The notes below the pieces were generated by a model that was not told the DNA's origin, searched no databases, and saw only the letters and a list, made by a program, of their open reading frames with translations. 64,000 nucleotides of DNA from an uncultured bacterium (lineage in GTDB: Bacteria; Hydrothermota; UBA3073; NMUJ01; CBEVQO01): positions 106,213 to 170,212 of the forward strand of contig CBEVQO010000004.1 of the NCBI GenBank assembly GCA_965552055.1. The letters are read 5' to 3'. This document shows, piece by piece, positions 16,147 to 63,491 of the stretch. Both the position numbers and the translations under genes were made by a program. Numbering within the stretch: the first letter of the stretch is position 1; each line of letters opens with the position of its first letter.

Positions 16147-16155
16147 GGGGGGGTT

Positions 16156-18408
16156 ATGCGTAAATTTTGTCTTTTGTTGATTTTAGTAAGTTTGGGAGCT
16201 TGGGCTAAGGCACCATCTTCTTTTAAGCCTCGTGTGGTTAAATCTCCTCGTCCGAAGGAAGATTATAAAGTGCACAATATAGGGCAGATATGGACGATGG
16301 AGTCGAATTTCGGTAGCTACGGTCATCCAGGTGCCGGAGACCTCGGTGTACCTTCTTTTGACTGGCCGGGTGGTACATTTAACTATTATCTTTATGAAGG
16401 AGGAATATGGGTAGGTGCGAAGACAGGCGATGATTATTATGTTTCGACTGCTTTTTATGATCATGAGTTACAGCCTTCTGATAAATATCCTGATGGCTGG
16501 GGATTTTGCGGAGGAGGACCTGAAGCCATTTCCATGTATGATATAACTTCTGCTTTTGATGATTTTGATGAAAATGCAAACGCTAACAGAGGATTGGGGT
16601 TATGCTTTGAGCAGAAGGCTCTTGCATGGTCTTTACCTGATTATGATGATTTTATTATCTATTATGTAAAAATCTGGTATGAAAAAGATAAAGCATTAAT
16701 AAGTGCGCCTCCTGATGTTTTGGAGAATGTTTATGTATCGGTATGGATGGATGCTGATGTTTCGAATGCGGATCCAAGCTGGTGTCATATTGATGACCTT
16801 GTTTCGTATGATGGCTGGACAAATGGAGAGTGGGAGGCAAGTGGCTTTTTTGCGCATATACCTCATGTTTCAAAGCCCGGTGCGCCTGTACATTTCCCCT
16901 ATGATTCGTTTACAATAATTGGAGATACTATATTTCCTTTTCCGGATGGTGCACCTGATTATTATACCATTTGGGGTGATGACCCTGATGAATTTTGTCT
17001 TACACGCCCTGATACTGTTTATTTACGAGAGGAGGTTTATAAATACCTTGAGCCTTCCATTAAGGGTTTATGTATAAAAGAAGGTAATATTTATAAACTT
17101 CCTTGTCAATTGATAGAACGAAATATGTCGTATATTTATGATGGAGATAACCCAGCGGACCCTGGTGATGATGAGGGCAATATTAAAGGTGGAGAAGGTA
17201 TTGGTGCGTGTGCTGGATATTTCTGGGGCAGGGTTTTGTATGCTCCTCCTTCGCCCAATGATTCCGTATGGAGTGACGGGGTAGGTGAGTGCAGGAGGGT
17301 AAGACCCAACTCCCATTCCTGGTGGAACTGGGAGAATGACCCAGGTACAGATGAAGAGCAATATAAGTATATGGCGGGCGTACATGAAGCTAATTATGGT
17401 TATAGATTTATGCCCCATCCTTTTGATGTTGGTGCACCGACTTTTGATTACAGATTTTTATTGACCTATGGACCTTATGAGCTGAGATCGTATGTTGATA
17501 CTTTGGTTTTTGTCTTTGCTATTGGTGTAGGTCAAGGTTTAAATGGTGGCGTTGATAGTTATTGGGGTAGAGGTTGGGAGCCTGGTGCTCGTCAGATGTC
17601 TGATTTAGCGTTAAAAGCTTACTATATGGGCAGGAGGGATGCTGATCCTTTGCATCCTGCACCCTATGCTCCTGGTAAGAACTTTGTAATACCTTTACCT
17701 CCTGAAGTGCCTTCTTTGAGGTATACTGTTTGCGGCAATGTTGTGGAATTGATGTGGGATGATAGGGCAGAGAAGGTACCCGACCCCATGGATAACATTC
17801 TGGATTTCGGTGGTTATCGTGTTTACAGGAGTGATTATAAAGTTGGCAACTGGGTATTGCTAGCTGATTTTCCGAAGAAAATATGGGGGGATACGATACC
17901 ACATTCTTATGTTGACACGCCGCCTATAGGTGTTCCGGTGTATTATGCGGTTACTGCGTATGATACAGGCAGGTTGAAAGTGGTTGGTAGTGATACAATA
18001 AGGATAGAGCCTCTTGAAAGTGGCAAGATAAATTACAAGAAGGACGAGGAGGGTAAAGAAATAGCGGTATGGGCTACAGGACCTGAGGATACGACTTTAA
18101 AAATGATAAGGGTGGTTCCCAATCCATATCTTGCTACTGCAAGATGGGAGCGTCAATTTGAAGATAAGATAATGTTTGTAGGTTTGCCTCCTGAGTGCAG
18201 GATTGAGATATTTACTGTGAGTGGTGATCTTGTGAAAGTAATAGAGCATAATAATGGCACTGGTTCTGAGAGCTGGGATTTGGTTTCCCGGGGAGATATA
18301 GAGGTATCGAGTGGTCTTTACATCTATAAGGTTACATGGAAGAGTCCTTCTGGCAAGTTAAAGCATAAGTTTGGCAAATTTGTGATAATAAGGGGTGAGA
18401 CGAGATAG
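16156..18408 (+). CDS. Secreted protein with Fn3-like module and variant T9SS-like CTD
   Basis: Signal peptide; ELMWDD...GYRVYRS...YYAVTAYD; C-terminal VVPNPY...IMFVGLP..CRIEIFTVSGDLV...SGLYIY. Confidence 0.75.
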   Translation: MRKFCLLLILVSLGAWAKAPSSFKPRVVKSPRPKEDYKVHNIGQIWTMESNFGSYGHPGAGDLGVPSFDWPGGTFNYYLYEGGIWVGAKTGDDYYVSTAFYDHELQPSDKYPDGWGFCGGGPEAISMYDITSAFDDFDENANANRGLGLCFEQKALAWSLPDYDDFIIYYVKIWYEKDKALISAPPDVLENVYVSVWMDADVSNADPSWCHIDDLVSYDGWTNGEWEASGFFAHIPHVSKPGAPVHFPYDSFTIIGDTIFPFPDGAPDYYTIWGDDPDEFCLTRPDTVYLREEVYKYLEPSIKGLCIKEGNIYKLPCQLIERNMSYIYDGDNPADPGDDEGNIKGGEGIGACAGYFWGRVLYAPPSPNDSVWSDGVGECRRVRPNSHSWWNWENDPGTDEEQYKYMAGVHEANYGYRFMPHPFDVGAPTFDYRFLLTYGPYELRSYVDTLVFVFAIGVGQGLNGGVDSYWGRGWEPGARQMSDLALKAYYMGRRDADPLHPAPYAPGKNFVIPLPPEVPSLRYTVCGNVVELMWDDRAEKVPDPMDNILDFGGYRVYRSDYKVGNWVLLADFPKKIWGDTIPHSYVDTPPIGVPVYYAVTAYDTGRLKVVGSDTIRIEPLESGKINYKKDEEGKEIAVWATGPEDTTLKMIRVVPNPYLATARWERQFEDKIMFVGLPPECRIEIFTVSGDLVKVIEHNNGTGSESWDLVSRGDIEVSSGLYIYKVTWKSPSGKLKHKFGKFVIIRGETR

Positions 18409-22729: not shown

Positions 22730-23755
22730 ATGAGGAATCTTTGGCTTATTTTGGTGATAAGTGTAGTTGTAAGTTGCGGGGTAAAAGAGAGCAAAGAGCC
22801 GCCTCCGTCTTTGACACCGAATCTTGATAGTTTATTGATAAAAGGCTGGGTTTATTACAGTGAAGGCAAGTTTGACACAGCCAAACAAATTTTTGATTCG
22901 GTGCTTATGTTTGATGTTTATAACTTTGATGCGCTGATAGGAGGTGGCTGGTCGAGCATACATCTTGGGGAATATCTTGATGCACATACATATCTTGGTC
23001 TTGCTTTGACAGTGAAAGGCGGGAGTCCGGTTTTTAAATCTCCTGAGGCTTCTTTTGAATATGATACTACTATAAATGAGACAATAAGAGTGGGGGATGA
23101 AATAAAGACAGTGGTTTATAAGATGAAGCCAGCAGGAGGCAACTATATTTTAGCACTTGATGAACTTGAATGCGAGTATAAGAAACCTTATACAATTTAT
23201 CGAGATACCTGTATATTCTACGATACTGTTGTGGTAGGAACTACTGTTGTCGTTGAAATTGATACGCTTTATCGTGATACAGTGGAAGCGGAATCTGTTT
23301 TTAAATATGAAGTGGCTGCAATTTTCAATGATTGTATATGGCTTACATGGAGTAGCGAAAATGATACGAATGTTGTGCCCCGTGCACCTGCTTCTGTTAC
23401 AGTGAGCAGTTATTATATAGTGGGGGAACCTGATTCATTGCAAGCGGAGGCGTTTGCAGGTGAATGTGCTTCTTATGTGTATGAGGGAGAATATTTTGAT
23501 GCTGTTAAAAATGGCAATGCTGTGATTTATATTAATCCTTCATATGTGACTAAATATAAGGATTATGTTACTTTTGACATAAAGTCTGTGCGTCTTCTTC
23601 TTGCGAAAAGTTATATGGAACTTGGTCTTTATAAGAATGTTGAAGAAGAGTTGAAGGCACTGGATTCTTCATGGGAGCCTCCTTCGCCCTCGTCTTCGGA
23701 TTATCTTTATCAGCTTTATAAGAAATTAGGCGAAATGAGTTTAGGTAGCTTATAA
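22730..23755 (+). CDS. Lipoprotein with TPR-like helices
   Basis: Lipobox VVSC; GWVYYSEGKFDTAKQIFDSVL TPR-like segment. Confidence 0.7.
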   Translation: MRNLWLILVISVVVSCGVKESKEPPPSLTPNLDSLLIKGWVYYSEGKFDTAKQIFDSVLMFDVYNFDALIGGGWSSIHLGEYLDAHTYLGLALTVKGGSPVFKSPEASFEYDTTINETIRVGDEIKTVVYKMKPAGGNYILALDELECEYKKPYTIYRDTCIFYDTVVVGTTVVVEIDTLYRDTVEAESVFKYEVAAIFNDCIWLTWSSENDTNVVPRAPASVTVSSYYIVGEPDSLQAEAFAGECASYVYEGEYFDAVKNGNAVIYINPSYVTKYKDYVTFDIKSVRLLLAKSYMELGLYKNVEEELKALDSSWEPPSPSSSDYLYQLYKKLGEMSLGSL

Positions 23756-23764
23756 GGGGGGGTT

Positions 23765-26700
23765 ATGCGTAAGTGTCTGTATCTATTAGTCTCCCTGTTG
23801 CTTGCAGGGAGTGTGTATGGGAGACTGATGCTATTGAGAAGCGATGGCAGGGCGATGCCGCTGAAGTCGGTGAAGGAAGCGGTGCTGTCTCATGGTTACA
23901 CGAAGATGAAGATAGACGATGCTATAAGGGTTGATAAAGCGAAGACCCCGGATGTATTCTCTCAGGTGGAAAAAGGTGCAAAAGGGGTGCAGATGACTCT
24001 GTCTTATCATGGTCCTTCTCGCTACTACTGTCCTTACAGGGCTCCTGGTTCATTGATTCTGGGATGGTTTACGCCTCCTGCTGCTTGTTCCATACTTGCT
24101 GTGCGAGCTGAGTTCTACTCTGATGGTCAATGTAAAGGTTATATATGGAACTCTCCTTTCCCTTATGTTGCAGGAATGGATCAGAGTGCGGCTAATGACT
24201 CGATAGCGAAATATTTCGTTTTTGACCCTGATTCCGGCTATAATCCTAATGGCTGGGTGGAAACGCCTGATGTCCTTGCTGGTCCATTCGTTATAAGTTC
24301 CAGTGGGTACGGCTGGGTGCAGGTAGACCTTGTGCCCATAGATGTTGGTGAAAATTCTTTCTTCTTCGGATACATACTGGAAGAGCCGACATCCGGCAAG
24401 CCCTATCCTTTGAGCGATGATCTCACAAATCAGTATCTGCCTGCGAGGTCTTATCACTACAGAACAGGTAGCTTATATTCGGGTGCTGCTTACTTTGACT
24501 GGTATTTCAATCTTACGGGAGATCCATGGGGCAATTATGCAGGAAACTGGATGCTTGAAGTGGTGGTAAATGTTTATGGTAATCCACCTCCAATGGTCTA
24601 TCACGATCAGTTACCCTACACCTATTATGCGGGTCCTTATAAAGTTCGGGCATTGATTATAGATTACGGTACTACTGATTATCCTGCGGGTGTTGATACG
24701 GTATTTCTCTATTATGCTGACCCCAATGTATTTGACCCACAGGATCCTACAACTTATGACAGTGTTGCTATGACCCTGGTAAGTGGTGCTGCTGATAGTG
24801 GTGTATATGAAGCGGATTTACCTGCGCTCTCTTTATATGAAGAATGGCTTTACTGGATAGAGGCAAGAGATGTTGAGCCCCGTACAGGTACATGGCCTGC
24901 TCCCGGTAGGTGGGCTCCAGCAATAATGGGAAGGCTCTCAAAGACACCGTATTACAGCAGTCTTGTAGTTATTCCGTCAACAGGAGTAACGGATATCTAC
25001 GCTGTTGATGATATAATGACCAATACATTCCATCAGGATTATGATTTCTGGTTCTGTGAGGACTGGCTCTATCCTGATAGCAGTGTGATAAATGCTTATC
25101 AATGTGTGGAGTGGTGGACATGGTCTGATGATTACATTTTACAATCAGAGTCTGCTTTAAGGACATTCCTTGACAACGGTGGTAAATTGTTCCTTACGGG
25201 TCAGGATGTTCTTTATCCTTTTGTTGGAACATACGATACAGTAATGGTTACTTCTGGTAACTTCGTATATGATTATCTAAAACTGGAAAAAGTGACAGAT
25301 GATAATGTTTGTCAGGAAGAACCTCTTACTATAAGCGGTGTAAGTGGAGATGAAATAACGGGTGAATTCGTGGATTCTAACTGGACACTCTATTATGATC
25401 CTATGGATGCATGGGTAAGTGGAGATGTGTGGATGGGTACAGCTGTTCCGATCGAGGGAGCTGGTGTTGATACTATCTTCATGGATGAATATGATAATGC
25501 TGTTGGCTTCAAATATGCTGATGCTTCGGGATACAAATATGTATTAAACTATTTCCAGACTGATGCTTGTGTTGATACTCTGACATTGCATCCTGTGTGG
25601 GGATCTTATTACGGTATTCTTTCATGGGATGCTCAGAAGTTGAGGATGTTTATGGATAATATGATGGGCTGGTTTGGTATTCCTAAAATTGGCATTGACG
25701 GAGCGGCGATTGCCGTCACTGCACCTGAGGTAGCTGGTCTCAGTAGAGGCTATATCGCTCCTGTGAGTGTTACTGTGGGTAACATGGGTTGTGATACTCA
25801 TGCTTATCATGTAGAATTGCATGCAGATATTCCTTTTGCTTATGAATGGATAAGCTCTGATGCAAGTGATACCATAGATACTTCGTACATTCTCACGATT
25901 ATCCAAATGGATACTTCATCGCCTCTTGCTTCTTATATGTCCGAAGATGTACCATTTGCTCCAATTTACTTGTGGGATACTGTAATCTTTAAAGGTTCCG
26001 CAGAAACTGAAACTGTTGTGATACCTCCGTCTAGTCCTGTTACACTGACTGGCATAATAAACAGTGAAGACACTATTGTTACTTATAATAACATTGCTCA
26101 ATTTTCTGTGACGATTGTGCCCTGTACGATCGATGTCCATCCTGTTTCACTTACGGGCTATGCTTACGCTAATCTGTCCTCAGTAATTTCAGTTGATGTT
26201 ACTCAAGATGGTTCGGACGATATTACAAATGTGCCTGTATGCATTTGTACAAGTGGAGGAAAATGGTTTGAAGATACTATTTCTTCTATAGGTTATGGTG
26301 ATATTGTGACTCTTGCATTTGAATTTACGGCAGGCGATACTCTTGATACTATTTTCTTCTATGCTGTTACAAATGCTGCTGGCGAAGAAAATGCGAGCAA
26401 CGATACTAGTGCAATTTACTATCTCGTTCCGGTTGCTTACTACGATGCATTTGTATGCTCTCTGAAAACGCCTGTAACTGTTCATTACGGAGATACAAAC
26501 ACAGCTGAGGTCAAAGTAGGAAATTACAATTCTTATGACAGAGAGTTTAAAGTTGCATTTACAGTTACCCATAAAGGCACAATACTCGTAGCGGCAGATA
26601 CTCAGGATGTTTTAATAGGTCGTCTCGATACTACTACTGTTACCTTCAACTGGGTGTCAAATGTATGGGAAGAAGGTGCAGCATATGACCTAATGGCAAC

Positions 26701-28548: not shown

Positions 28549-29142
28549 ATGCCTGAGACGAAGATTGAGAAAAAGAAGCTCGAAGAGACGATAAGAAAAG
28601 CGGTGAAAGAAATTCTTCTGGAGACATTAATAGAAGAGGATGCATTCAGGAAATTTGAGTTAAGCACGGCAGGAAGAGTGATAAGAATAGAAGAGAAGCT
28701 GGATAAATTTGTGACCAAAGAAGAGTTTCAGAAAGCGATAGGTGAATTGAACAAAAGAATAGATGTGAAGACAGCGGAGACCAATAAAAGGATAGATGAG
28801 AAGACGGCGGAGACCAATAAAAGGATAGATGAGAAGATAGCTGAAGTTAATAAAAGGATAGATGAGAAGACGGCGGAGACCAATAAAAGGATAGATGAGA
28901 AGATAGCTGAAGTTAATAAAAGGATAGATGAGAAGACGGCGGAGACCAACAGGAGGATAGATGAGAAGATAGCTGAAGTTAACAAGAGGATAGATGAAAA
29001 GACGGCGGAGACTAACAAGAGGCTAGATGAGAAGATAGCTGAAGTTAACAGGAGGATTGACAAATTATTGTGGCTACTAGTTGGGGCATTATTAGGAATA
29101 ATTGGCACTCTAATAACCGCAATTTTTAACTTATTAAGATAG
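28549..29142 (+). CDS. Hendecad coiled-coil repeat protein with C-terminal TM anchor
   Basis: Nine 11-aa repeats D(E/V)K(T/I)AE(T/V)N(K/R)R(I/L), then LLWLLVGALLGIIGTLITAIF. Confidence 0.85.
   Translation: MPETKIEKKKLEETIRKAVKEILLETLIEEDAFRKFELSTAGRVIRIEEKLDKFVTKEEFQKAIGELNKRIDVKTAETNKRIDEKTAETNKRIDEKIAEVNKRIDEKTAETNKRIDEKIAEVNKRIDEKTAETNRRIDEKIAEVNKRIDEKTAETNKRLDEKIAEVNRRIDKLLWLLVGALLGIIGTLITAIFNLLR
28762..29058 (+). repeat. Tandem repeat, 9 x 33 bp (higher-order 66-bp unit)
   Basis: Units GATGAGAAGACGGCGGAGACCAATAAAAGGATA and GATGAGAAGATAGCTGAAGTTAATAAAAGGATA alternate. Confidence 0.95.
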
Positions 29143-36071: not shown

Positions 36072-36370
36072 TCTGGTTTGAATCCTATTATTTTTTTCTC
36101 GTGTGTTTCCTCTATTTTAATTTCTCCGAATCTTTCTTCGTATTTTTTGATATTTTCTTCGAGTGTTTTCAACAATCTTTTTGCGTGTGCCGGTGCCAGT
36201 ATTATTCTTGCGTATATTTTTGTTTTTTTGAGTCCTGGCATTATTCTTGTGAAATCGATTACGAATTCCGTTGGTGAGTGGCTTACGATTGCAAAGTTTG
36301 AGTATATTCCTTCGCCTTCTTTTTCCGGCACTTCAATTTGTATTTCTTGCATTTGCGGTCTTTCTTCCAT
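36068..36370 (-). CDS. DUF3467-domain protein
   Basis: [20 protein letters not shown]...[13 protein letters not shown]; start trimmed to ATG 36370. Confidence 0.85.
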
Positions 36371-36806
36371 TTTTAACTCCTTTTTTCTTATTGAAAAGTT
36401 TATCGAAAGTGTCAATTATGAATTTGGCAGATTTAAAACCTTCTTTTATTACATTAACACTTTTACCCCCTCTGTAATATCCAAGTATATGGAGAACTTC
36501 ATAAGCTGTATTAAAATGTGCTTTTAATTTGCCGTTATGCGGTATTTTGTTGAGCCATTGCATATATTCTCTGTAATCCGCCGGTAATTCCTCTGGCTTT
36601 TTCCCCTTTTTTAAGATGTATGCATCTATTGCGAGAAGGACTGCGAGATATCCGATGGCACATGCCTCTGATACCCTTTTGCTATCGGCATATCTTATAC
36701 CATATTCAATTGGTGTCTCCTTTAAAATATCCTTTGCATTTTTGAAATATCTTTTTGCTTCTCTTATTGCTTCTTCAGGACTTTTAGGTCTTTCTCTTTT
36801 TTCCAT
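36333..36806 (-). CDS. DUF5618-like (HEPN/PaREP1-fold) protein, copy A
   Basis: [41 protein letters not shown]. Confidence 0.75.
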   Translation of the reverse strand: MEKRERPKSPEEAIREAKRYFKNAKDILKETPIEYGIRYADSKRVSEACAIGYLAVLLAIDAYILKKGKKPEELPADYREYMQWLNKIPHNGKLKAHFNTAYEVLHILGYYRGGKSVNVIKEGFKSAKFIIDTFDKLFNKKKGVKNGRKTANARNTN

Positions 36807-37239
36807 ATTCTTTCTCCTTTTCATTAAAAAGTTTGTCAAATGTGTCAATAATTATTTTTGCTGCTTTGAAACCTGCTTTTATGATATCGACACTCGTTCC
36901 TCCTCTATAATATCCCAGGATGTGTAAACTTTCATAAACCGTATTAAGATGTGCTTTTAATTTGCCGTTATGCGGGATTTTGTTGAGCCATTGCATATAT
37001 TCTCTGTAATCCGCCGGTAATTCCTCTGGCTTTTTCCCCTTTTTTAAGATGTATGCATCTATTGCGAGAAGGACTGCGAGATATCCGATGGCACATGCCT
37101 CTGATACCCTTTTGCTATCGGCATATCTTATACCATATTCAATTGGTGTCTCCTTTAAAATATCCTTTGCATTTTTGAAATATCTTTTTGCTTCTCTTAT
37201 TGCTTCTTCAGGACTTTTAGGTCTTTCTCTTTTTTCCAT
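36784..37239 (-). CDS. DUF5618-like protein, copy B
   Basis: Same motifs; LNTVYESLHILGYYRG. Confidence 0.75.
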   Translation of the reverse strand: MEKRERPKSPEEAIREAKRYFKNAKDILKETPIEYGIRYADSKRVSEACAIGYLAVLLAIDAYILKKGKKPEELPADYREYMQWLNKIPHNGKLKAHLNTVYESLHILGYYRGGTSVDIIKAGFKAAKIIIDTFDKLFNEKEKEYGKKRKT

Positions 37240-37672
37240 ATTCTTTCTCCTTTTCATTAAAAAGTTTGTCAAATGTATCAATAATTATTTTTGCTGCTTT
37301 GAAACCTGATTTTATGATATCGACACTCGTTCCTCCTCTGTAATATCCCAGGATGTGTAAACTTTCATAAACCGTATTAAAATGTGCTTTTAATTTGCCG
37401 TTATGCGGTATTTTGTTGAGCCATTGCATATATTCTCTGTAATCCGCCGGTAATTCCTCTGGCTTTTTCCCCTTTTTTAAGATGTATGCATCTATTGCGA
37501 GAAGGACTGCGAGATATCCGATGGCACATGCCTCTGATACCCTTTTGCTATCGGCATATCTTATACCATATTCAATTGGTGTCTCCTTTAAAATATCCTT
37601 TGCATTTTTGAAATATCTTTTTGCTTCTCTTATTGCTTCTTCAGGACTTTTAGGTCTTTCTCTTTTTTCCAT
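37217..37672 (-). CDS. DUF5618-like protein, copy C
   Basis: Near-identical to copy B. Confidence 0.75.
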   Translation of the reverse strand: MEKRERPKSPEEAIREAKRYFKNAKDILKETPIEYGIRYADSKRVSEACAIGYLAVLLAIDAYILKKGKKPEELPADYREYMQWLNKIPHNGKLKAHFNTVYESLHILGYYRGGTSVDIIKSGFKAAKIIIDTFDKLFNEKEKEYGKKRKT

Positions 37673-38105
37673 ATTCTTTCTCCTTTTCATTAAAAAGTTT
37701 GTCAAATGTATCAATAATTACCTTTACTGCTTTGAAGCCCCCTTTTATCATATCAACATTTGTCCCGCCTCTGTAATATCCGAGGATATGCAGGTTCTCG
37801 TAAGCCGTGTTTAAGCACGCTTTTAGTTTGCCATTGTGCGGAATTTTACCAATTTCTTTCATGTATTCCGAAAATTTTGTTGGCAAATCTCCTGTTTCTT
37901 TACCTTTTTTAAGCAGATAAGCATCTATTGCCAGAAGTGCTGCAAGATAACCGATAGCACAAGCTTCTGATACCTTTTTGCTGTCAATATATCTTTCGTA
38001 TTCAACGGGTATTTCTTTTAAAATATTTTTGGCGTTTTTAAAGTATCTTTTGGCTTCAGAGATTGCTTCTTCAGGACTTTTGGGTCTTTCTCTTATTTTT
38101 TCCAC
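37650..38105 (-). CDS. DUF5618-like protein, copy D (most divergent)
   Basis: GTG start behind AAGGAGG; divergent throughout (EIPVEYERYIDSKKV, KETGDLPTKFSEY). Confidence 0.75.
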   Translation of the reverse strand: MEKIRERPKSPEEAISEAKRYFKNAKNILKEIPVEYERYIDSKKVSEACAIGYLAALLAIDAYLLKKGKETGDLPTKFSEYMKEIGKIPHNGKLKACLNTAYENLHILGYYRGGTNVDMIKGGFKAVKVIIDTFDKLFNEKEKEYGKKRKT

Positions 38106-38541
38106 TGCTTGCCTCCTTTTTCTTATTGAAAAGTTTATCGAAGGTGTCAATTATGAATTTGGCAGATTTAAAACCTTCTTTTATCATCTGGACACCCCTT
38201 CCGCCTCTATAATATCCGAATACATGTAAATTTTCATAGGCTGTATTAAAATGTGCTTTTAATTTGCCGTTATGCGGTATTTTGTTGAGCCATTGCATAT
38301 ATTCTCTGTAATCCGCCGGTAATTCCTCTGGCTTTTTCCCCTTTTTTAAGATGTATGCATCTATTGCGAGAAGGACTGCGAGATATCCGATGGCACATGC
38401 CTCTGATACCCTTTTGCTATCGGCATATCTTATACCATATTCAATTGGTGTCTCCTTTAAAATATCCTTTGCATTTTTGAAATATCTTTTTGCTTCTCTT
38501 ATTGCTTCTTCAGGACTTTTAGGTCTTTCTCTTTTTTCCAT
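38071..38541 (-). CDS. DUF5618-like protein, copy E
   Basis: Same motifs; [23 protein letters not shown]. Confidence 0.75.
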   Translation of the reverse strand: MEKRERPKSPEEAIREAKRYFKNAKDILKETPIEYGIRYADSKRVSEACAIGYLAVLLAIDAYILKKGKKPEELPADYREYMQWLNKIPHNGKLKAHFNTAYENLHVFGYYRGGRGVQMIKEGFKSAKFIIDTFDKLFNKKKEASSGKNKRKTQKS

Positions 38542-38971
38542 ATTCTTTCTCCTTTTCATTAAAAAGTTTGTCAAATGTATCAATAATTACCTTTACTGCT
38601 TTGAAGCCCCCTTTTATCATATCAACATTTGTCCCGCCTCTGTAATATCCGAACACATGCAGGTTTTCATAAGCCGTATTAAAATAAGCCTTTAATTTGC
38701 CGTTATGCGGGATTTTGTTGAGCCATTGCATATATTCTCTGTAATCCGCCGGTAATTCCTCTGGCTTTTTCCCCTTTTTTAAGATGTATGCATCTATTGC
38801 GAGAAGGACTGCGAGATATCCGATGGCACATGCCTCTGATACCCTTTTGCTATCGGCATATCTTATACCATATTCAATTGGTGTCTCCTTTAAAATATCT
38901 TTTGCATTTTTGAAATATCTTTTTGCTTCTCTTATTGCATCTTCAGGACTTTTGGGTCTTTCTCTTATCAT
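38519..38971 (-). CDS. DUF5618-like protein, copy F (first in the operon)
   Basis: ATGA overlap with the upstream kinase gene; [23 protein letters not shown]. Confidence 0.75.
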
Positions 38972-57443: not shown

Positions 57444-57638
57444 TTGCTTTTTGGTATCTTTTTGATTTTTACTTCTGGTATTCTATTTTTGCTTGGTAAA
57501 ACAGGTGTTAACTTTCCGCGTTTACCGGGTGATATTTACATAAAGCGTGAAAATTTTGTTTTTTATTTTCCCATTGTTAGTTGTGTTATTTTGTCTTTAC
57601 TTTTGACTCTTATTTTAAATCTTTTGTGCAGGAGATGA
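57444..57638 (+). CDS. DUF2905-family small membrane protein
   Basis: RLPGDIYIKRENFVFYFPIVSCVILSLLLT. Confidence 0.85.
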   Translation: MLFGIFLIFTSGILFLLGKTGVNFPRLPGDIYIKRENFVFYFPIVSCVILSLLLTLILNLLCRR

Positions 57639-58690
57639 TACCTGAGAGTTTATTTTTTATAGTGTCGAAATATTTTGAAGTCGAAAGTGTTCATTACTCT
57701 GGAGAAAGGCTTTCTTTCTTTGGGCGACCGATCGGTGACCCTGATGAATCTTTTGATAATATTTATCGTGAGATAAGAAAGTTTGATTTCATTCCTGCTT
57801 TTTTCAAAAAAGATGGACATATAGAATTGAGGATTGTAAAATTTTCGCCCGTTAAAGCGGGTAATCACAATGTGAATCTCATATTGCTTTTTCTTACTGT
57901 TATCACAACAGTGCTTGCCGGTGTTATGCTTTCTGGCAAAAGTCCGTTAATCATAAAGAACTGGATTTATGGTATTCCTTATTCAATAGCGATAATGACA
58001 ATACTTGGAGCACATGAGCTCGGGCATTATTTTGCCTGCAAAAAATATGGTGTAAGGGCAACTCTTCCTTATTTTATTCCTGTGCCTACTTTTGTAGGGA
58101 CATTTGGTGCAATAATAAGGATAAAATCGCCGATTCCAAATAGGAGAAGCTTAATGGTGATAGGAGCCAGCGGACCTTTTATTGGTTTATTCTTTGCAAT
58201 ACTTTTTACAATAATAGGTTTAAAACTGTCGAAAGTGGTTCCGCGTACAGGGGCAGGGTTATCGCTTGGTAGTTCTTTACTTTTTTCTTTTTTATCGAAA
58301 ATGGTTTATCCTGATGTTCCCGCGGGCATGACGATAGCTTTAAATCCACTTGCTTTCGCTGGCTGGCTCGGTATGTTTGTCACCGCTATGAATCTATTGC
58401 CTGTTGGTCAGCTAGATGGCGGACATATTGCTTATTCTTTATTCGGGGAAAAACAAAGATATTTCTCTTTACCTGTTATAGCTTTATTGATTTATTTTGG
58501 GATAAAATACTGGGTGGGATGGTTTTTATGGGCACTTTTGCTTGCATTTCTCGCAGGGGTAAGACATCCCCCAACTTTAAATGACCTCAGCAAACTAAAA
58601 CCGGCTCACAGGATAATGGGAATAGCTGGATTTATCGTGCTTATTGTAACATTTATTCCTTCGCCATTTCCTGGTGTGAAACTGGGATGA
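57635..58690 (+). CDS. Site-2 protease family (M50) membrane metalloprotease
   Basis: AHELGHY, PYFIP..GTFGA, SGPFIG, NLLPVGQLDGGH; start trimmed to ATG 57635. Confidence 0.92.
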   Translation: MIPESLFFIVSKYFEVESVHYSGERLSFFGRPIGDPDESFDNIYREIRKFDFIPAFFKKDGHIELRIVKFSPVKAGNHNVNLILLFLTVITTVLAGVMLSGKSPLIIKNWIYGIPYSIAIMTILGAHELGHYFACKKYGVRATLPYFIPVPTFVGTFGAIIRIKSPIPNRRSLMVIGASGPFIGLFFAILFTIIGLKLSKVVPRTGAGLSLGSSLLFSFLSKMVYPDVPAGMTIALNPLAFAGWLGMFVTAMNLLPVGQLDGGHIAYSLFGEKQRYFSLPVIALLIYFGIKYWVGWFLWALLLAFLAGVRHPPTLNDLSKLKPAHRIMGIAGFIVLIVTFIPSPFPGVKLG

Positions 58691-59571
58691 ATGTTGTATC
58701 GAAAACAGATTTAAAAGATGTGAAGTTAATAAAAAGGGGCAAGGTAAGGGATATATACGAAGTGGATGATAAGCTGTTAATAGTTTCTACCGATAGAATA
58801 TCTGCTTTCGATATTGTGCTACCCAATGCTATTCCTATGAAAGGTAAAATTTTGAATAAGATGTGTGAATTCTGGTTTAAATTTACATGTGATATTTGCG
58901 ATAATCATTTTATAACTGCGGATGTTGAAGATTTTCCCGATATTTTGAAAAAATATTCATTAATTTTGAAAGATAGGGCAATGTTATGTTTGCGTGCAGA
59001 ACCTATCATGGTTGAATGCATTGTCAGGGGTTATTTATCTGGCAGTGCCTGGAAAGAATATAAGAAAAAAGGGACGATATGGGGGACAAGGTATCCCGAT
59101 GGCTTAAAGGAGTCGCAGAAATTGGATGAGCCAATATTTACTCCAACTACAAAAGCATTGGAAGGGCATGATGAACCCATAACTTTTAAAAAATTAAAAG
59201 ATAAATATGGTACGGAGATTGCGAATTTTCTAAAAGATAAGAGCATAGAAATTTATTTGAAAGGAGCAAAATATGCAGAGGATAGAGATATTATAATAGC
59301 GGATGCAAAATTTGAATTTGGTTTTTATGATGATAGGATAATTTTAATAGATGAGATTTTGACACCCGATTCTTCGAGATTCTGGGATGCAAAGGAATAT
59401 TCGCCCGGGTTACCTCAAAAGAGTTTTGATAAGCAATTTGTCAGGGATTATCTCGAAAGTATAGGCTGGAATAAGAAGCCCCCGCCCCCACCCCTCCCCC
59501 CCGAAATTATCAAAAAGACAACAGAAAAATATAAGGAAGCATACAAAAGATTAGTGGGAGAGGAGATATGA
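58687..59571 (+). CDS. purC: SAICAR synthetase
   Basis: RGKVRDIY, TDRISAFD, ECIVRGYLSGS, IFTPTTKA, IIADAKFEFG, DEILTPDSSRFW. Confidence 0.97.
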   Translation: MNVVSKTDLKDVKLIKRGKVRDIYEVDDKLLIVSTDRISAFDIVLPNAIPMKGKILNKMCEFWFKFTCDICDNHFITADVEDFPDILKKYSLILKDRAMLCLRAEPIMVECIVRGYLSGSAWKEYKKKGTIWGTRYPDGLKESQKLDEPIFTPTTKALEGHDEPITFKKLKDKYGTEIANFLKDKSIEIYLKGAKYAEDRDIIIADAKFEFGFYDDRIILIDEILTPDSSRFWDAKEYSPGLPQKSFDKQFVRDYLESIGWNKKPPPPPLPPEIIKKTTEKYKEAYKRLVGEEI

Positions 59572-59572
59572 A
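59550..59572 (+). repeat. 23-bp direct repeat, left copy
   Basis: ATTAGTGGGAGAGGAGATATGAA, identical to 61243-61265. Confidence 0.95.
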
Positions 59573-60611
59573 TAAACTTTTATCTGCTATTGAAGCAGCC
59601 AAAATCCTACAAATAACAGTTAAGGAATTACATGAGTTAACGAAGTCAGGTGAAATAAAGAGCATCATTATTCCCAGTGGACAATACAAATTCGATTACG
59701 AAGAGATTTTGAGATTTAAGAAAACCGATTTATATCAAAAACTTAAAAAAAGAGGCAAAAAAGCACTGGAAGATAAGATAAAATTAATAGAAGTTAATAA
59801 CACCACTCAAAAAATAATTGTGGGCGATGCACGCAAAATGGAAGAAATAGAAAATGGTTCTATAAATCTTGTAATAACTTCGCCTCCATATTTTAACGCT
59901 AAATTGTATTCTGAGACGAAAATCGAAGGAGATTTAGGTGCAATTGAAGATTTAGATAAATGGTTAGAAGAAATTGAAAAAGTGTGGCGTGAAGTTTATC
60001 GGGTTTTACAACCCGGCAGGAAAGCATTTATTAATATTATGAATTTACCTGTTCGCACAAAGCGGGGATTTAAAACTTTGAATTTATGTGGTAAAACAAT
60101 AGATATTTTTGAAAAAATAGGGTTTATATTTAAAAGAGACATTGTGTGGCACAAAACAAACTCAGTCCGTGCACATTTCGGTACTTTTCCCTATCCCGGT
60201 AATATTTTAATAAACTATGCACATGAATTCATACTGGAGTTTGAGAAACCTGCTCCTAAAAATTATGATAAATATGCTCATTTAACTGAATATCAAAAAG
60301 AGGCATCGAAGTTAGAAAAAGAATTTTGGATTGAGATTAAGAAGACAGATGTATGGACTATGAAACCCGAAGGTTCGGGTGATAGGCGTGAACATGTTGC
60401 ACCTTTTCCTTATGAGTTGCCTTATAGATTGATAAAAGCTTACAGTTACATTGGTGAAGTCGTTTTAGATCCTTTTGTAGGTTCAGGAACCACTTTAATT
60501 GCAGCTAGAGATTTAATGAGAAATGGTATAGGATATGAAATAAATCCTGAAATTGCAGCTGTAGCAGTTGAAAGGATAAAAAATTACCAGTATAAATTGT
60601 TTAAAAAATGA
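59568..60611 (+). CDS. Beta-class N4C/N6A DNA methyltransferase with N-terminal HTH (HTH_17/MerR-like)
   Basis: LLSAIEAAKILQIT (HTH); LVITSPPYF (motif IV); HVAPFP; VLDPFVGSGTT (motif I). Confidence 0.9.
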   Translation: MNKLLSAIEAAKILQITVKELHELTKSGEIKSIIIPSGQYKFDYEEILRFKKTDLYQKLKKRGKKALEDKIKLIEVNNTTQKIIVGDARKMEEIENGSINLVITSPPYFNAKLYSETKIEGDLGAIEDLDKWLEEIEKVWREVYRVLQPGRKAFINIMNLPVRTKRGFKTLNLCGKTIDIFEKIGFIFKRDIVWHKTNSVRAHFGTFPYPGNILINYAHEFILEFEKPAPKNYDKYAHLTEYQKEASKLEKEFWIEIKKTDVWTMKPEGSGDRREHVAPFPYELPYRLIKAYSYIGEVVLDPFVGSGTTLIAARDLMRNGIGYEINPEIAAVAVERIKNYQYKLFKK

Positions 60612-61264
60612 ATGTATTATGCCAAATAAATGACTTTAAAAAAGCAATTAATGAAATAATAGAACTTTTAGATTGTGAAAAGTTAAATTTGGAAAGAGGC
60701 GTAGAATTTACTGATGAGATAAAAGAAATAAAATCTTTTTTTGTTTTCTTAAAAAATATATCTAAAAAAGCAAATTCTTATGAAGAGCTCATAAAAATTC
60801 TTAATGAAAGTAAAGAAATTGATAAAAGATTTTTAGGTTTTTTAGGAAAAATTTTAGATATTATTCAAGTTTTAAAAGAAGGAAGCGAACGAAACAGGAA
60901 AATAAGGTCGGAGATAATTAAGAATTTAGAAGAAACAGGGCACTGGAGAGAAAGTATGAGAATAAGAATAGAAAGATATCATAAAGAATTAATCGAAGCA
61001 ATTGTTATTTACAATATTTTGGAAATAGCTTATTTTATCGGGGAGAAAAAAGAAAGCAGGTTAGGCAAACCGCTACAAAAAAAATTTGAAGAATATGAAG
61101 ATTGTTTAATATTTATACCACATGTAAAAGAAAATGTTAAACAGATAAATGAAAAAGATGAAATTATCATTCCTCAGGAGGTTTTAAAAACAAAGATAAA
61201 GTTTGAGGATTTTGAGAATTTGCCGGCAGATGATTTAATCAAATTAGTGGGAGAGGAGATATGA
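60608..61264 (+). CDS. Hypothetical protein (possible partner of the methyltransferase)
   Basis: 218-aa ORF, ATGA-coupled to the MTase, no recognisable motif. Confidence 0.65.
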   Translation: MNVLCQINDFKKAINEIIELLDCEKLNLERGVEFTDEIKEIKSFFVFLKNISKKANSYEELIKILNESKEIDKRFLGFLGKILDIIQVLKEGSERNRKIRSEIIKNLEETGHWRESMRIRIERYHKELIEAIVIYNILEIAYFIGEKKESRLGKPLQKKFEEYEDCLIFIPHVKENVKQINEKDEIIIPQEVLKTKIKFEDFENLPADDLIKLVGEEI

Positions 61265-61265
61265 A
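61243..61265 (+). repeat. 23-bp direct repeat, right copy
   Basis: ATTAGTGGGAGAGGAGATATGAA, identical to 59550-59572. Confidence 0.95.
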
Positions 61266-61773
61266 AGAATATAAATTATCGGATGAGTTTTTGTCAACGG
61301 GTGTTCCTACTGCTGGGGACCTGAAGTATGTGTTACCGCCTGATGAGCGCCTTGAGAGGGGTCCCTGTGTCGTGGTTGAGTGCTTTCAGCGTATCCCGTG
61401 CAATCCCTGTACCAGAGCGTGTCCTTCAGGAGCTATAAAAATAGAAGGAAATATCAATAATTTACCCGAGGTGGATTTTGATAAATGCACAGGATGCGGT
61501 GTGTGTATCGCTCATTGTCCCGGATTATGTATTTTTGTTGTACATAAAAATTATACAGAAAAAACAGGAAGAGTGATGATACCCTATGAATTTTTACCTG
61601 TTCCGGAAAAGGGTGAAATCGTTGATGGTTTGAATCGTGCAGGCGAAAAAGTTTGTGATGCAAAAGTTTTAAGAGTGATAAATAATCCAAAGCAAGACAA
61701 AACTTTAATAATAGATGTGGAAGTGCCGAAAAATTTAATAAATGAAGTAAGGATGATAAAAGTGAGAAGATGA
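61261..61773 (+). CDS. 4Fe-4S dicluster domain protein
   Basis: [15 protein letters not shown] and [12 protein letters not shown]. Confidence 0.88.
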
Positions 61774-63491
61774 GAGTTGGAATTGCACAAATAAATCCCA
61801 CGGTTGGTGATTTTGAAGGCAACGCTAAAAAAATTCTGGAGTATATTGAGAAAGCAAGGGAAGTGGAGTGCGATGTCGTTGCATTTCCTGAGCTGGTGCT
61901 GACAGGATATCCGCCCGAAGATTTGTTGCTGAAACCCAAATTTATAGAAGAAAATCTTAAAAAAATAAAAGAAATAGCATCAAAAACAAAAGACATAGTC
62001 GCAATAATAGGTTTTGTTGATAAAAAGGACGATATTTATAACGCTGCAGCTATTATTTATGATGGTGAAATAAAAGGTGTTCATCACAAGCATTATCTAC
62101 CCAATTACACTGTATTCGATGAAAAGAGGTATTTTCAGGAAGGCAAAGAATCTTATGTTTATCAGTATGGTGAATGTATTTTCGGGGTTACTATTTGTGA
62201 GGATATCTGGATACAGGGTGGCACTCTTGAAGCCCAGGTTCTTGGTGGTGATGTTGAGATTATTTTCTCAATAAATGCCTCGCCTTATCATGTTGGGAAA
62301 TGGGAACAAAGGAGAGAGATGCTTTCTACTCGTGCAAACGATAATTCAATAGTTATTGTTTATGCAAATATGGTTGGGGGACAGGATGAGCTCGTTTTTG
62401 ATGGTCATTCTATGGTTATAAATGAGTATGGTGAGTTGATAGCAGAGGCATCGCAATTTGAAGAAGATTTTATTGCCTGTGACATAGACAGGAGGAGCAT
62501 TCTCAGAAAAAGATTGCACGACCCGAGGAGGAGAGAAGCCAAAGAAGAATTTTTACAAACAGGTCAAAAGGTTAAAAGAATAATTTTAAAAAAGGACGAA
62601 TATGAAAAAGATAAGAAACCACTTCCTTCTTATCCGAGGATAAGGTTGCATGAAACAGAGGAGATTTACAGGGCATTATGTGTTGGTTTGCGTGATTACA
62701 TAAAGAAAAATGGCTTTAAAAAAGTGGTAATAGGGTTATCCGGCGGGATAGATTCTGCGCTTACAGCTGTAATAGCGGTCGATGCACTTGGAAAGGAGAA
62801 TGTAACATGTGTTTATATGCCATCGATGTATTCATCAAAAGAAAGTAAAGAAGATGCAGAAAAGCTTGCGAAAAATCTTGGAGTGAAATTTCTGGAAATA
62901 CCCATAACCGATATTTACAATCAATATATGAAAGTGTTTGGCAAAGTGTTTAAGGGCTTGCCTGTCGATAAGACCGAAGAAAATTTGCAGGCAAGGATAA
63001 GGGGTAATATTTTGATGGCTTTATCAAATAAATTCGGCTGGATTGTTTTATCTACAGGTAATAAAAGTGAAATGAGCGTTGGATATGCGACACTTTATGG
63101 TGATATGTGCGGTGGATTTAATGTGTTGAAAGATGTTCCAAAGACGCTTGTTTACAAACTCGCACATTACAGGAATACAAAATCAAAAGTGATACCCGAT
63201 AGAATTTTGAAAAAACCGCCCTCAGCTGAGTTAAGACCAAATCAAAGAGACGAAGACGAGCTCGCACCTTATGAATTGCTTGACCCCATAGTGCAGCTTT
63301 ATGTTGAAGAAGATAGGAGCATGGATGAAATTATAAAAATGGGTTTCGAAGAGAAACTTGTAAAAAAGGTAGTAAGTATGATAGACAAAAACGAATATAA
63401 GAGGCGTCAATCACCACCCGGCATTAAAATAACCCCAAGAGCATTTGGTAAAGATAGAAGAATGCCCATAACCAATAAATTTATTCCTTAA
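61770..63491 (+). CDS. nadE: Glutamine-dependent NAD+ synthetase
   Basis: Nitrilase-like FPEL/DEKRYF/TICEDIW plus synthetase [32 protein letters not shown]. Confidence 0.96.

What the first reader, a model, noticed from the sequence alone, without database searches (positions are those of the whole stretch)
59550..61265. 1.7-kb cassette flanked by an exact 23-bp direct repeat containing purC's 3' end, RBS and next start codon
ATTAGTGGGAGAGGAGATATGAA occurs at 59550-59572 and 61243-61265, 1693 bp apart. As a result both PurC and the 60608 ORF end in LVGEEI*, and both the MTase and the ferredoxin gene start behind the same GGAGAGGAG SD with ATGA coupling. Recombination between the repeats would restore a clean purC-ferredoxin-nadE operon. 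The insert is AT-rich and encodes no integrase. It looks like a promoterless cassette that integrated site-specifically at a translational junction to be expressed seamlessly from a housekeeping operon.
Basis: partly seen in the sequence, partly recalled or inferred. Interest (0 to 1): 0.7.

Follow-up and report, generated by a model that had tools for sequence, protein, structure and literature searches.

The report
Restriction-modification genes inserted into an operon
A two-gene restriction-modification unit (DNA methyltransferase plus restriction enzyme) was inserted exactly at the stop/start junction between purC and a ferredoxin gene, duplicating 23 bp of that junction; this way of moving is already known for such genes, and in this strain the restriction enzyme has since lost its catalytic core.

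Summary
ATTAGTGGGAGAGGAGATATGAA occurs exactly twice, at 59550-59572 and 61243-61265, and each copy supplies a stop codon, an SD and an ATG.

The 1.67-kb insert is a Type II restriction-modification pair:
- **M gene:** an HTH_17-fused beta-class N4/N6 DNA methyltransferase.
- **ORF2:** belongs to an unnamed family of about 340-aa proteins that always sit next to a DNA methyltransferase. Their predicted core has a PD-(D/E)XK (Hjc-like) nuclease fold.
- **Damage in this strain:** ORF2 carries a 342-bp in-frame deletion that removes that core. Sister-strain contigs have the intact 332-aa gene at the same site.

A 173-bp contig from a relative about 86% identical joins the purC 3' end, one copy of the 23-mer and the ferredoxin gene. 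This is an empty site, so the repeat is a target duplication.

I found no recombinase, terminal inverted repeats or attC-like structure. In sister strains the two repeat copies differ at 2-3 of 23 positions.

This matches the known "insertion with long target duplication" of restriction-modification genes (Nobusato 2000; Furuta 2010), except that 23 bp is below their 30-bp cut-off. Site-specific integration is not supported. It is a new member of a known kind and of moderate interest.

The parts
59550..59572 (+). Upstream copy of the 23-bp target duplication. It holds the last 7 codons and stop of purC (..L V G E E I *), a GGGAGAGGAG SD and the ATG now used by the MTase.
   Evidence: It is identical to the single copy at the empty site in the X5 relative and to the upstream copy in L109.
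61243..61265 (+). Downstream copy of the 23-bp target duplication. It supplies the last codons and stop of the R remnant (LVGEEI*), the SD and the ATG of the Fer4 gene.
   Evidence: In sister strains it differs at 61247 (G>A) and 61265 (A>G), and in L109 also at 61259 (A>G).
59568..60611 (+). Type II DNA methyltransferase, 347 aa. It has an N-terminal HTH_17 (excisionase/MerR-like) domain and a beta-class N6_N4_Mtase domain: SPPY motif IV lies before FVGSGTT motif I.
   Evidence: Pfam PF01555 7.5e-44 and PF12728 1.2e-6. PADLOC MTase_II 1.7e-64. 64% identical to the MTase paired with the full-length R homologue P0023 in L102. Nearest solved structure 2zie, 3e-42.
60608..61264 (+). Remnant of the restriction endonuclease gene (ORF2, 218 aa). 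It keeps the N-terminal helical domain and the C-terminal tail and lacks the central nuclease core.
   Evidence: Matches the family profile at positions 1-155 and 281-340 of 344 only. Full-length alleles are in L107 and L108. Full-length family members neighbour MTases. The family model has a PD-(D/E)XK/Hjc-like fold.
61059..61075 (+). Junction of the 342-bp (114-codon) in-frame deletion, between 61063 and 61064, with GG(T/A)TA microhomology. Five substitutions relative to the intact allele follow within 15 bp.
   Evidence: The deletion is shared by the window and the independent contig L109.
59573..61265 (+). The inserted DNA as one unit, 1693 bp: 1670 bp of foreign sequence plus one 23-bp repeat copy. 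Which copy is the 'new' one cannot be assigned.
   Evidence: Spacing of 1693 bp. Low GC. Absent from the X5 empty-site contig.
58687..59571 (+). purC (SAICAR synthetase), the upstream target gene, left intact by the duplication.
   Evidence: PF01259 2e-73.
61261..61773 (+). 4Fe-4S dicluster protein gene, the downstream target gene, left intact with its own SD and ATG.
   Evidence: Fer4 families. A 99% allele, P0038, occurs in sister strains.
61770..63491 (+). nadE (glutamine-dependent NAD synthetase), the last gene of the string. It lies downstream of the insert, so its expression depends on read-through across the insert.
   Evidence: PF02540 and PF00795. No + strand terminator-like site between 55.4 and 63.4 kb.

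Best explanation
A Type II restriction-modification gene pair (M then R) was inserted at the 4-bp-overlap junction between purC and the downstream 4Fe-4S gene. This happened in an ancestor of this species-level lineage, or the filled allele was imported from a relative. The insertion duplicated 23 bp of the target.

That 23-mer holds the purC stop codon, the SD and the ferredoxin ATG. As a result all four genes have complete translation signals:
- purC keeps its end.
- The MTase uses the duplicated SD and ATG.
- The R gene ends in the duplicated purC tail.
- Fer4 keeps its own start.

The pair has no promoter or terminator of its own that I could find. It is presumably transcribed and translationally coupled as part of the M50-purC-Fer4-nadE string (inferred).

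The event fits the recombinase-independent 'insertion with long target duplication' described for R-M systems. The molecular mechanism of that mode is not known; its authors suggest double-strand breakage is involved (inferred).

In sister strains the R gene is intact, so there the pair should act as a working restriction-modification system. In this strain and in X1, a 342-bp in-frame deletion removed the PD-(D/E)XK core of R. That leaves an orphan methyltransferase and a 218-aa helical remnant.
For: **Identity of the genes**
- MTase.
- ORF2 is an orphan by word-based search. A full HMMER scan finds 21 relatives, mostly of about 340-380 aa, that match only ORF2's N-terminal part and C-terminal tail.
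- Four family members were looked up, giving seven loci in four distinct contexts. Each context has a DNA methyltransferase as neighbour, though one short contig (L106) is cut before it. The partner is C5 in L100 and L104/L105, and N4/N6 in L101 and L102/L103. L102 has the same HTH_17+N6_N4 architecture as the window.
- The AF2 model of a full-length member has pLDDT 88. Its alpha/beta domain hits Hjc and RecU nucleases.
- 24 of the 36 invariant family residues lie in the block that is missing here.

**Intact allele at the same place**
- L107 and L108 carry the 342 extra nucleotides between window positions 61063 and 61064.
- The composite 332-aa protein matches the profile at positions 1-341 of 344, E 1e-101.

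**Insertion**
- The X5 contig (173 bp, depth 3.2) reads AGAAGCATACAGAAG + the 23-mer + Fer4.
- Its first 15 nt match the purC end at 13 of 15 positions (P about 9e-7) and the ORF2 end at only 7 of 15.
- Of the listed differences in Fer4, 10 of 14 fall at third codon positions.
- GC is low.

**No dedicated machinery**
-.

**Precedent**
- PMC2853133.
Against: - The empty site rests on one short, low-depth contig from a relative about 86% identical. No conspecific empty allele was seen in contigs from 8 runs or in 4 assemblies.
- The 23-bp duplication is below the >30-bp criterion that Furuta et al. used.
- The two copies differ at 2-3 positions in sister strains. Either mutations accumulated after the insertion or one copy arrived with the incoming DNA. 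The window's perfect identity may be secondary, through conversion or recombination.
- Nuclease-fold E-values are weak (9e-3 to 0.1), although the top 23 hits agree.
- Expression, methylation and restriction were not tested.
Confidence: 0.65

Rival explanations
1. The unit is a promoterless circular cassette that integrates site-specifically at the 23-bp sequence (an attB/attP-like core), using a recombinase encoded elsewhere, as integron cassettes do.
For: - The flanking direct repeats are clean, and the insert boundaries coincide almost exactly with the ends of the two genes.
- In sister strains the downstream copy differs from the chromosomal-type copy at 2 positions, as a hybrid att site could.
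- A second junction-type repeat, 22/23, exists at 16141 and 23750.
Against: - No integrase, transposase or serine recombinase among 51 ORFs in 64 kb.
- No inverted repeats or attC-like structure at the ends, and no dyad symmetry in the 23-mer.
- Four homologous R-M loci have no such flanking repeat, and one of them carries ordinary non-coding flanks.
- No circle or excision joint in contigs of 8 runs. Contigs cannot show rare forms, so this is weak evidence.
Confidence: 0.1
2. The M-R pair is ancestral at this position. The empty allele in the relative arose by deletion between the two 23-bp repeats, so the polarity is loss rather than gain.
For: - All conspecific assemblies carry the pair.
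- Only one outgroup allele is known.
- Recombination between 23-bp repeats would give exactly that empty site.
Against: - The repeats themselves still need an origin.
- ORF2's GC (0.26) is below that of every other gene in the window.
- The R family is rare, patchy, and paired with unrelated MTase classes in unrelated contexts.
- purC-Fer4-nadE synteny is itself confined to this lineage.
Confidence: 0.1
3. The insertion happened in another, related lineage. The filled allele then entered this species by homologous recombination through the purC and Fer4/nadE flanks. This is a variant of the best explanation: it accounts for the non-identical repeat copies without needing later mutation.
For: - The downstream copy is 21/23 in sister strains.
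- Differences between strains cluster in the first 460 bp after the insert (61181-61698), while the insert itself differs at about 0.1%.
- The window has its own cluster of changes at 61247-62057.
Against: - No donor lineage was identified.
- The pattern can also come from ordinary mutation plus recombination among strains.
Confidence: 0.12
4. There was no insertion. The repeat is chance, convergent evolution of a strong coupling signal, or an assembly artefact.
For: SD-plus-ATGA junctions are common in this gene string.
Against: - Shuffles give 0 matches.
- The same structure appears in independent assemblies (L109, and X3 across the upstream junction).
- 23 bp is shorter than the assembler's word length.
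- An empty site exists.
Confidence: 0.02

Closest known systems
Insertion of restriction-modification gene complexes with long target duplication (Nobusato, Uchiyama, Ohashi & Kobayashi 2000, Gene 259:99; Furuta, Abe & Kobayashi 2010, NAR 38:2428, PMC2853133)
   Same: - An R+M unit with no mobility gene.
- Direct repeats that each align to a single-copy sequence at the empty site of a related genome.
- Repeats that span a translation stop and start, so the target genes stay intact.
- Insertion into an operon-like gene string.
- Insert GC below the genome's.
   Different: - The duplication is 23 bp; published cases are 46 bp to about 420 bp, and the screen required more than 30 bp.
- The duplicated segment is a complete stop/SD/ATG coupling module, which also provides the MTase start and the R stop. 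Both ends of the unit are therefore in-frame fusions with host sequence.
- The empty site is known only from a relative about 86% identical.
Type II R-M systems whose MTase has an N-terminal HTH (e.g. SsoII, EcoRII, MspI-type autoregulating MTases; from my own knowledge, not checked here)
   Same: An MTase with an N-terminal DNA-binding HTH, followed by a co-oriented R gene. L102 shows the free-standing form, with an upstream non-coding region.
   Different: Here the native upstream region is gone and the gene is fused to an operon junction, so any HTH-operator autoregulation has probably lost its target. The HTH is of the HTH_17 (excisionase/MerR) type.
Integron gene cassettes
   Same: Promoterless gene unit expressed from an upstream host promoter; compact, with boundaries at the gene ends.
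   Different: No attC, no intI, no attI. The flanking repeats are host target sequence, not element sequence.
Orphan methyltransferases formed by decay of R-M systems
   Same: The R gene is inactivated while the M gene stays intact. Intact and decayed alleles coexist in the population.
   Different: Inactivation is a clean in-frame excision of the catalytic core, which leaves an expressible two-domain remnant. It is not a frameshift or a full deletion.

Membership tests
R-M insertion with long target duplication (Furuta 2010 criteria) | The inserted sequence contains both an R and an M gene homologue | tested here: met
   MTase. ORF2 is a member of a REase-like family that is always MTase-linked. 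It is intact in sister strains.
R-M insertion with long target duplication (Furuta 2010 criteria) | Insert shorter than 20 kb, with no other mobile-element genes | tested here: met
   1.67 kb here (2.0 kb with the intact R) and only two ORFs. No recombinase in the window. No TIRs.
R-M insertion with long target duplication (Furuta 2010 criteria) | Both flanking repeats align to one copy of the sequence at an empty site in a related genome | tested here: met
   The X5 173-bp contig reads purC end (13/15) + 23-mer (23/23) + Fer4 (statistics). This is a single short low-depth contig.
R-M insertion with long target duplication (Furuta 2010 criteria) | Target duplication longer than 30 bp | tested here: not met
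   Homology is exactly 23 bp, and the flanks diverge immediately. The cut-off was an operational filter against att cores, not a mechanistic definition.
Type II restriction-modification system | DNA MTase with AdoMet-binding and catalytic motifs | tested here: met
   PF01555 covers profile positions 1-220 of 221. SPPY and FVGSGTT are present.
Type II restriction-modification system | Adjacent endonuclease with an intact catalytic domain | tested here: not met
   The window allele lacks profile positions 156-280, which hold 24 of the 36 invariant residues. The feature is met in the sister alleles L107 and L108. The nuclease fold is inferred from Foldseek hits to Hjc and RecU.
Type II restriction-modification system | Sequence-specific methylation and cognate cleavage | not testable with these tools
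   Needs methylome data or enzyme assays.
Integron gene cassette | attC recombination site (imperfect inverted repeats) at the cassette end | tested here: not met
   No inverted repeat is positioned at the boundaries.
Integron gene cassette | Integron integrase and attI nearby | tested here: not met
   No tyrosine recombinase in 64 kb. The rest of the genome was not available.
IS / transposon | Terminal inverted repeats, a transposase and a short (2-14 bp) TSD | tested here: not met
   The duplication is 23 bp.
Integrase-mediated genomic islet (att core repeats) | Integrase gene within or next to the element | tested here: not met

The most novel reading that the evidence does not exclude
Insertion at stop/SD/start junctions with a duplication of about 23 bp is a recurrent, targeted process in this lineage. 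It would be driven by an unrecognised trans-acting activity that captures promoterless gene blocks into operons. The purC/Fer4 R-M unit and the 7.6-kb four-gene block bracketed by the 22/23 repeat at 16141 and 23750 would then be two products of the same mechanism.
Probability: 0.06. Interest if true: 0.75.

Novelty: new member of a known kind. Interest (0 to 1): 0.35.

Why it matters
- **A clean natural example.** A selfish defence gene pair became part of a housekeeping operon without damaging it. The duplicated 23 bp is a whole translational-coupling module, so each of the four genes keeps or gains a stop, an SD and a start.
- **Extends the known mode.** The R-M 'target duplication' mode now reaches a shorter repeat and an uncultured hydrothermal-vent or sediment lineage.
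- **Decay caught in progress.** Intact and core-deleted R alleles coexist in the same population.
- **A candidate new enzyme family.** The R family is a small, unannotated family of putative Type II restriction endonucleases: a helical N-terminal domain plus an Hjc-like PD-(D/E)XK core, with no Pfam, NCBIfam or PADLOC model. It could be characterised.
- **No new mobility principle.** None of this requires one.

Tried and rejected
- **Empty site in the public contig collections.** Scans of genome contigs and metagenome contigs with the Fer4 protein gave only relatives of at most 59% identity, none next to purC or nadE. Fer4 homologues at 64-71% identity (L111-L115) also lack the synteny.
- **Exact look-ups.** PurC and Fer4 were not on record.
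- **L107.** It first looked like an empty site, with a 231-aa partial ORF abutting Fer4. Alignment showed it is the intact R allele.
- **Excision joints.** No 59572>61266 joint appeared in contigs of 8 runs. Contigs drop rare forms, so this is weak evidence.
- **Tool artefact.** One search reported 0 differences for the X1 contig in the downstream repeat. The contig sequence itself (L109) shows three, as one search had said.
- **Single-sequence AF2 of ORF2.** Uninformative, pLDDT 51.
- **ORF2 against profile libraries.** Nothing in Pfam, PADLOC or NCBIfam.
- **R family against PDB by sequence.** Nothing.
- **Viral contigs.** No relatives of the R family.
- **Flanking duplications at homologous R-M loci.** None.
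- **RNA runs.** None listed.
- **Organism name.** Cluster look-up gave no names. Relatives of the Fer4 protein are labelled WOR-3, Stahlbacteria or plain 'bacterium'.
- **Second junction repeat (D8).** No alternative form and no coverage in the relative.
Full report
**1. The observation**

The 23-mer ATTAGTGGGAGAGGAGATATGAA occurs at 59550-59572 and 61243-61265 and nowhere else in the window, even allowing three mismatches. Shuffled sequence gave no matches. Homology ends exactly at the 23 bp on both sides.

The surrounding genes all lie on the + strand, and from the M50 gene onwards neighbours overlap by 4 bp (ATGA):
- glycosyltransferase (55570)
- metallophosphoesterase (56674)
- M50 peptidase (57581-58690)
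- purC (58687-59571)
- a 347-aa methyltransferase (59568-60611)
- a 218-aa ORF2 (60608-61264)
- a 170-aa 4Fe-4S protein (61261-61773)
- nadE (61770-63491)

PurC and ORF2 both end in LVGEEI*. The MTase and Fer4 both start at the ATG inside the repeat.

The insert is AT-rich. GC is 0.298 for the insert and 0.26 for ORF2, against 0.359 +/- 0.033 for 35 other genes in the window, whose minimum is 0.278.

**2. What the two genes are**

The first gene is a Type II DNA methyltransferase.
- It matches PF01555 across the whole domain (7.5e-44) and has an N-terminal HTH_17 domain.
- It matches PADLOC MTase_II at 1.7e-64.
- The SPPY motif lies before FVGSGTT, which is the beta-class order.
- The nearest solved structure is a Thermus putative modification methylase (2zie, 3e-42). 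N4-cytosine enzymes come next.
- Whether it makes N4mC or 6mA is not settled. SPPY leans towards N4-cytosine, but that is my inference from the literature on motif IV and was not tested.

ORF2 has no match in Pfam, PADLOC or NCBIfam. By word-based search it matches only itself among 5.8 billion proteins. The exhaustive HMMER scan found 21 relatives, mostly of about 340-380 aa. They match ORF2 only over its first ~150 residues and, in a second stretch, its tail.

A profile built from the full-length members without ORF2 hits ORF2 in two pieces. Profile positions 1-155 match residues 1-148, and positions 281-340 match residues 156-214. ORF2 is therefore a family member that lacks about 125 central positions. 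That block carries 24 of the 36 invariant residues of the family, in the pattern R..S.G.R.P.EYF..L..GW..E ... G.D ... M...D ... ELQR ... HK ... W.G.

**3. The family looks like a restriction endonuclease family**

Four family members were looked up, giving seven loci in four distinct contexts. Each context has a co-oriented DNA methyltransferase next to the family member:
- L100: a C5 enzyme.
- L104/L105: a C5 enzyme, with a 124-aa ORF between it and the family member. The short contig L106 carries the same protein but is cut before the MTase.
- L101: a 527-aa N4/N6 enzyme.
- L102/L103: a 350-aa HTH_17+N6_N4 enzyme. It is 64% identical to the window's MTase.

One protein family paired with unrelated methyltransferase classes is the usual signature of Type II restriction enzymes.

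An AlphaFold model of a full-length member, built with an 18-sequence alignment, has pLDDT 88 and pTM 0.88. It shows a helical N-terminal domain and an alpha/beta domain. In the Foldseek search against the PDB, the top 23 hits are all archaeal Hjc Holliday-junction resolvases (probability 0.96-1.0, TM-score on the target 0.5-0.6). RecU follows. This is the PD-(D/E)XK nuclease fold. The E-values are only 9e-3 to 0.1. No PDB relative is detectable by sequence.

**4. Sister strains carry the intact R gene at the same place**

The Fer4 protein has a 99% identical allele, P0038, found on four contigs.
- L109 is the 3527-bp X1 contig. It is colinear with window 58874-62400, with 13 substitutions and no gaps. 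It therefore has the same short ORF2.
- L107 (an 18.9-kb NCBI MAG contig) and L108 (an ENA contig) have 342 extra nucleotides (114 codons) between window positions 61063 and 61064. These encode exactly the missing block...LPINTLRKSMGDRLPEEYFANLVAGWLIEDYF...GIDADRK...GGYDIKV...LELQRVRK...KRHK...ILILWIGRPLQKK....
- L110 matches L107 and L108 at every substitution downstream of the junction, but it starts at window position 61059, so it does not cover the 342-nt block itself.
- The window's N-terminal part joined to L107 gives a 332-aa protein. It matches the family profile at positions 1-341 of 344 in one piece, E 1e-101.

The window's ORF2 is therefore a recent in-frame deletion derivative. The breakpoints share GG(T/A)TA microhomology. 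The deletion occurs in two independent assemblies, the window and X1.

**5. Is the repeat a target duplication?**

All near-identical strains examined carry the insert: the window, X1/L109, X2/L110, X3 (a contig across the upstream junction), X4, L107 and L108.

Run X5, a sediment metagenome, also holds a relative that differs by about 14% here.
- Its 173-bp contig (depth 3.2) aligns to 61243-397 with 21 differences, none within 61243-61274.
- Its first 15 nt are AGAAGCATACAGAAG.
- That matches the purC end immediately left of the upstream repeat (GGAAGCATACAAAAG) at 13 of 15 positions, P about 9e-7. It matches the ORF2 end at only 7 of 15.
- The two changes in purC are one synonymous and one K>R.
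- 10 of the 14 listed Fer4 differences fall at third codon positions, by my count.

This is an orthologous locus in which purC, one copy of the 23-mer and Fer4 are contiguous, which makes it an empty site. The 23-mer is shorter than the assembler's 31-mer, so it cannot have produced a chimeric join. The evidence is still a single short contig.

**6. The repeat copies are not identical everywhere**

In L107, L108 and L110 the downstream copy is ATTAATGGGAGAGGAGATATGAG (21/23). In L109 it is ATTAATGGGAGAGGAGGTATGAG (20/23), while the L109 upstream copy equals the window's. The empty-site copy equals the window's.

The window and X1 share the R deletion but differ in the downstream copy. The window also has its own cluster of changes at 61247-62057. 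Strain-to-strain recombination or conversion must therefore have occurred, and the window's perfect 23/23 may be secondary. This does not affect the target-duplication reading.

**7. Mechanism**

I found no sign of a dedicated recombination system:
- no integrase, transposase or serine recombinase among 51 ORFs of at least 110 aa;
- no terminal inverted repeats or attC-like structure;
- no comparable flanking duplication at the four homologous R-M loci. One of them (L102) carries ordinary upstream and downstream non-coding DNA and a 13-bp M-R spacer.

The region from 55.4 to 63.4 kb has no + strand terminator-like site, and promoter-like sites are not enriched (26 found against 30.4 +/- 5.3 expected). 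Expression by read-through and coupling is plausible but untested, because no RNA runs were listed.

Compared with L102, the window's MTase lacks about 7 N-terminal residues and begins MNKL- directly at the duplicated ATG. The R tail runs to the natural family C-terminus and then into the duplicated purC tail. Both ends are thus in-frame fusions with host sequence. Selection would favour exactly such insertions: the MTase must be made, and Fer4 and nadE must still be expressed downstream.

**8. Comparison with what is known**

Furuta, Abe and Kobayashi (PMC2853133) describe R-M units inserted with long target duplications and no mobility genes, in many bacteria and for all R-M types. [quoted passage not shown] They also saw a Type II R-M inserted into an operon-like structure. 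They suggest double-strand breakage is involved, and the mechanism is unproven. The original description is Nobusato et al. 2000, Gene 259:99.

The present case meets their criteria except for repeat length. It has 23 bp, against their operational cut-off of more than 30 bp, and their examples run from 46 bp to about 420 bp. I therefore file it as working like that class and as a borderline member by their filter. It does not resemble an integron cassette, an IS element or an integrase islet.

**9. Verdict**

The feature is real, and the insertion is correctly inferred. The best reading is a known kind of R-M mobility. It comes with a neat operon-junction geometry, an R gene caught in the act of decaying, and an uncharacterised putative restriction-enzyme family. 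Interest is moderate, at 0.35.

Noticed in passing
window 16141-16163 and 23750-23772: A second junction-type direct repeat: TT(T/A)TAAGGGGGGGTTATGCGTAA, 22/23 with 20 nt exact, 7609 bp apart. Each copy holds the upstream gene's TAA stop, a G-rich SD and ATG CGT AA of the next gene. The pair brackets a four-gene block (750, 331, 1098 and 341 aa), between a TonB-dependent-receptor-like gene and a 1098-aa gene whose product carries a T9SS sorting domain. The geometry is the same as at the purC/Fer4 repeat. No alternative joined form was seen in sister strains, and no contig of the distant relative covers it.
   Followed up: partly
window 61059-61075: Just right of the R deletion junction, the window and X1 differ from the intact allele at 5 of 15 positions: four synonymous changes and one K/R, in five consecutive codons. 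The 154 bp to the left are identical. This could reflect error-prone repair at the junction or a patch from a diverged allele; it is unexplained.
   Followed up: partly
window 61247-62057 (Fer4 and start of nadE): Seven positions where the window differs from both X1 and the L107-type strains, including three within 10 bp at 61518-61527. The insert itself differs from these strains at only about 0.1%. This suggests a recombinant or converted patch that starts in the downstream repeat.
   Followed up: partly
window 36333-38971 (- strand): Six tandem paralogous genes of about 165-171 aa on a 433-bp period, 66-100% identical. The one scanned matches DUF5618 at 9e-29. The array lies next to a DUF3467 gene.
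   Followed up: no
window 28671-29093, within ORF 28549-29142: An array with a 33-bp (11-aa) period inside a 197-aa ORF. The ORF gives a sub-threshold apolipoprotein-like amphipathic-repeat match.
   Followed up: no
L100 5001-7177 and L101 2865-5495: Homologous R-M pairs also sit tightly inside housekeeping gene strings: valS | R | C5 MTase | SH3_3 | IMPDH with 2-7 bp spacers, and cinA-ligT | MTase | R ... recA. Neither has a detectable target duplication.
   Followed up: partly
window 59478-59510 (purC 3' region): PurC carries a proline-rich insertion (KKPPPPPLPPE) near its C-terminus. Contigs of many other organisms align up to this point and then diverge.
   Followed up: no
Read-laying output, window 61180-61440, run X1: A tool inconsistency. 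On a short stretch containing one repeat copy, the X1 contig was reported with 0 differences. The contig sequence itself has three differences there (61247, 61259, 61265), as one search reported.
   Followed up: yes
L111 544-2619: In a relative whose Fer4 protein is 71% identical, from a hydrothermal vent metagenome, the Fer4 gene lies next to a DDE transposase and a HicA toxin gene rather than purC or nadE. The neighbourhood of this gene is therefore fluid across the wider group.
   Followed up: no
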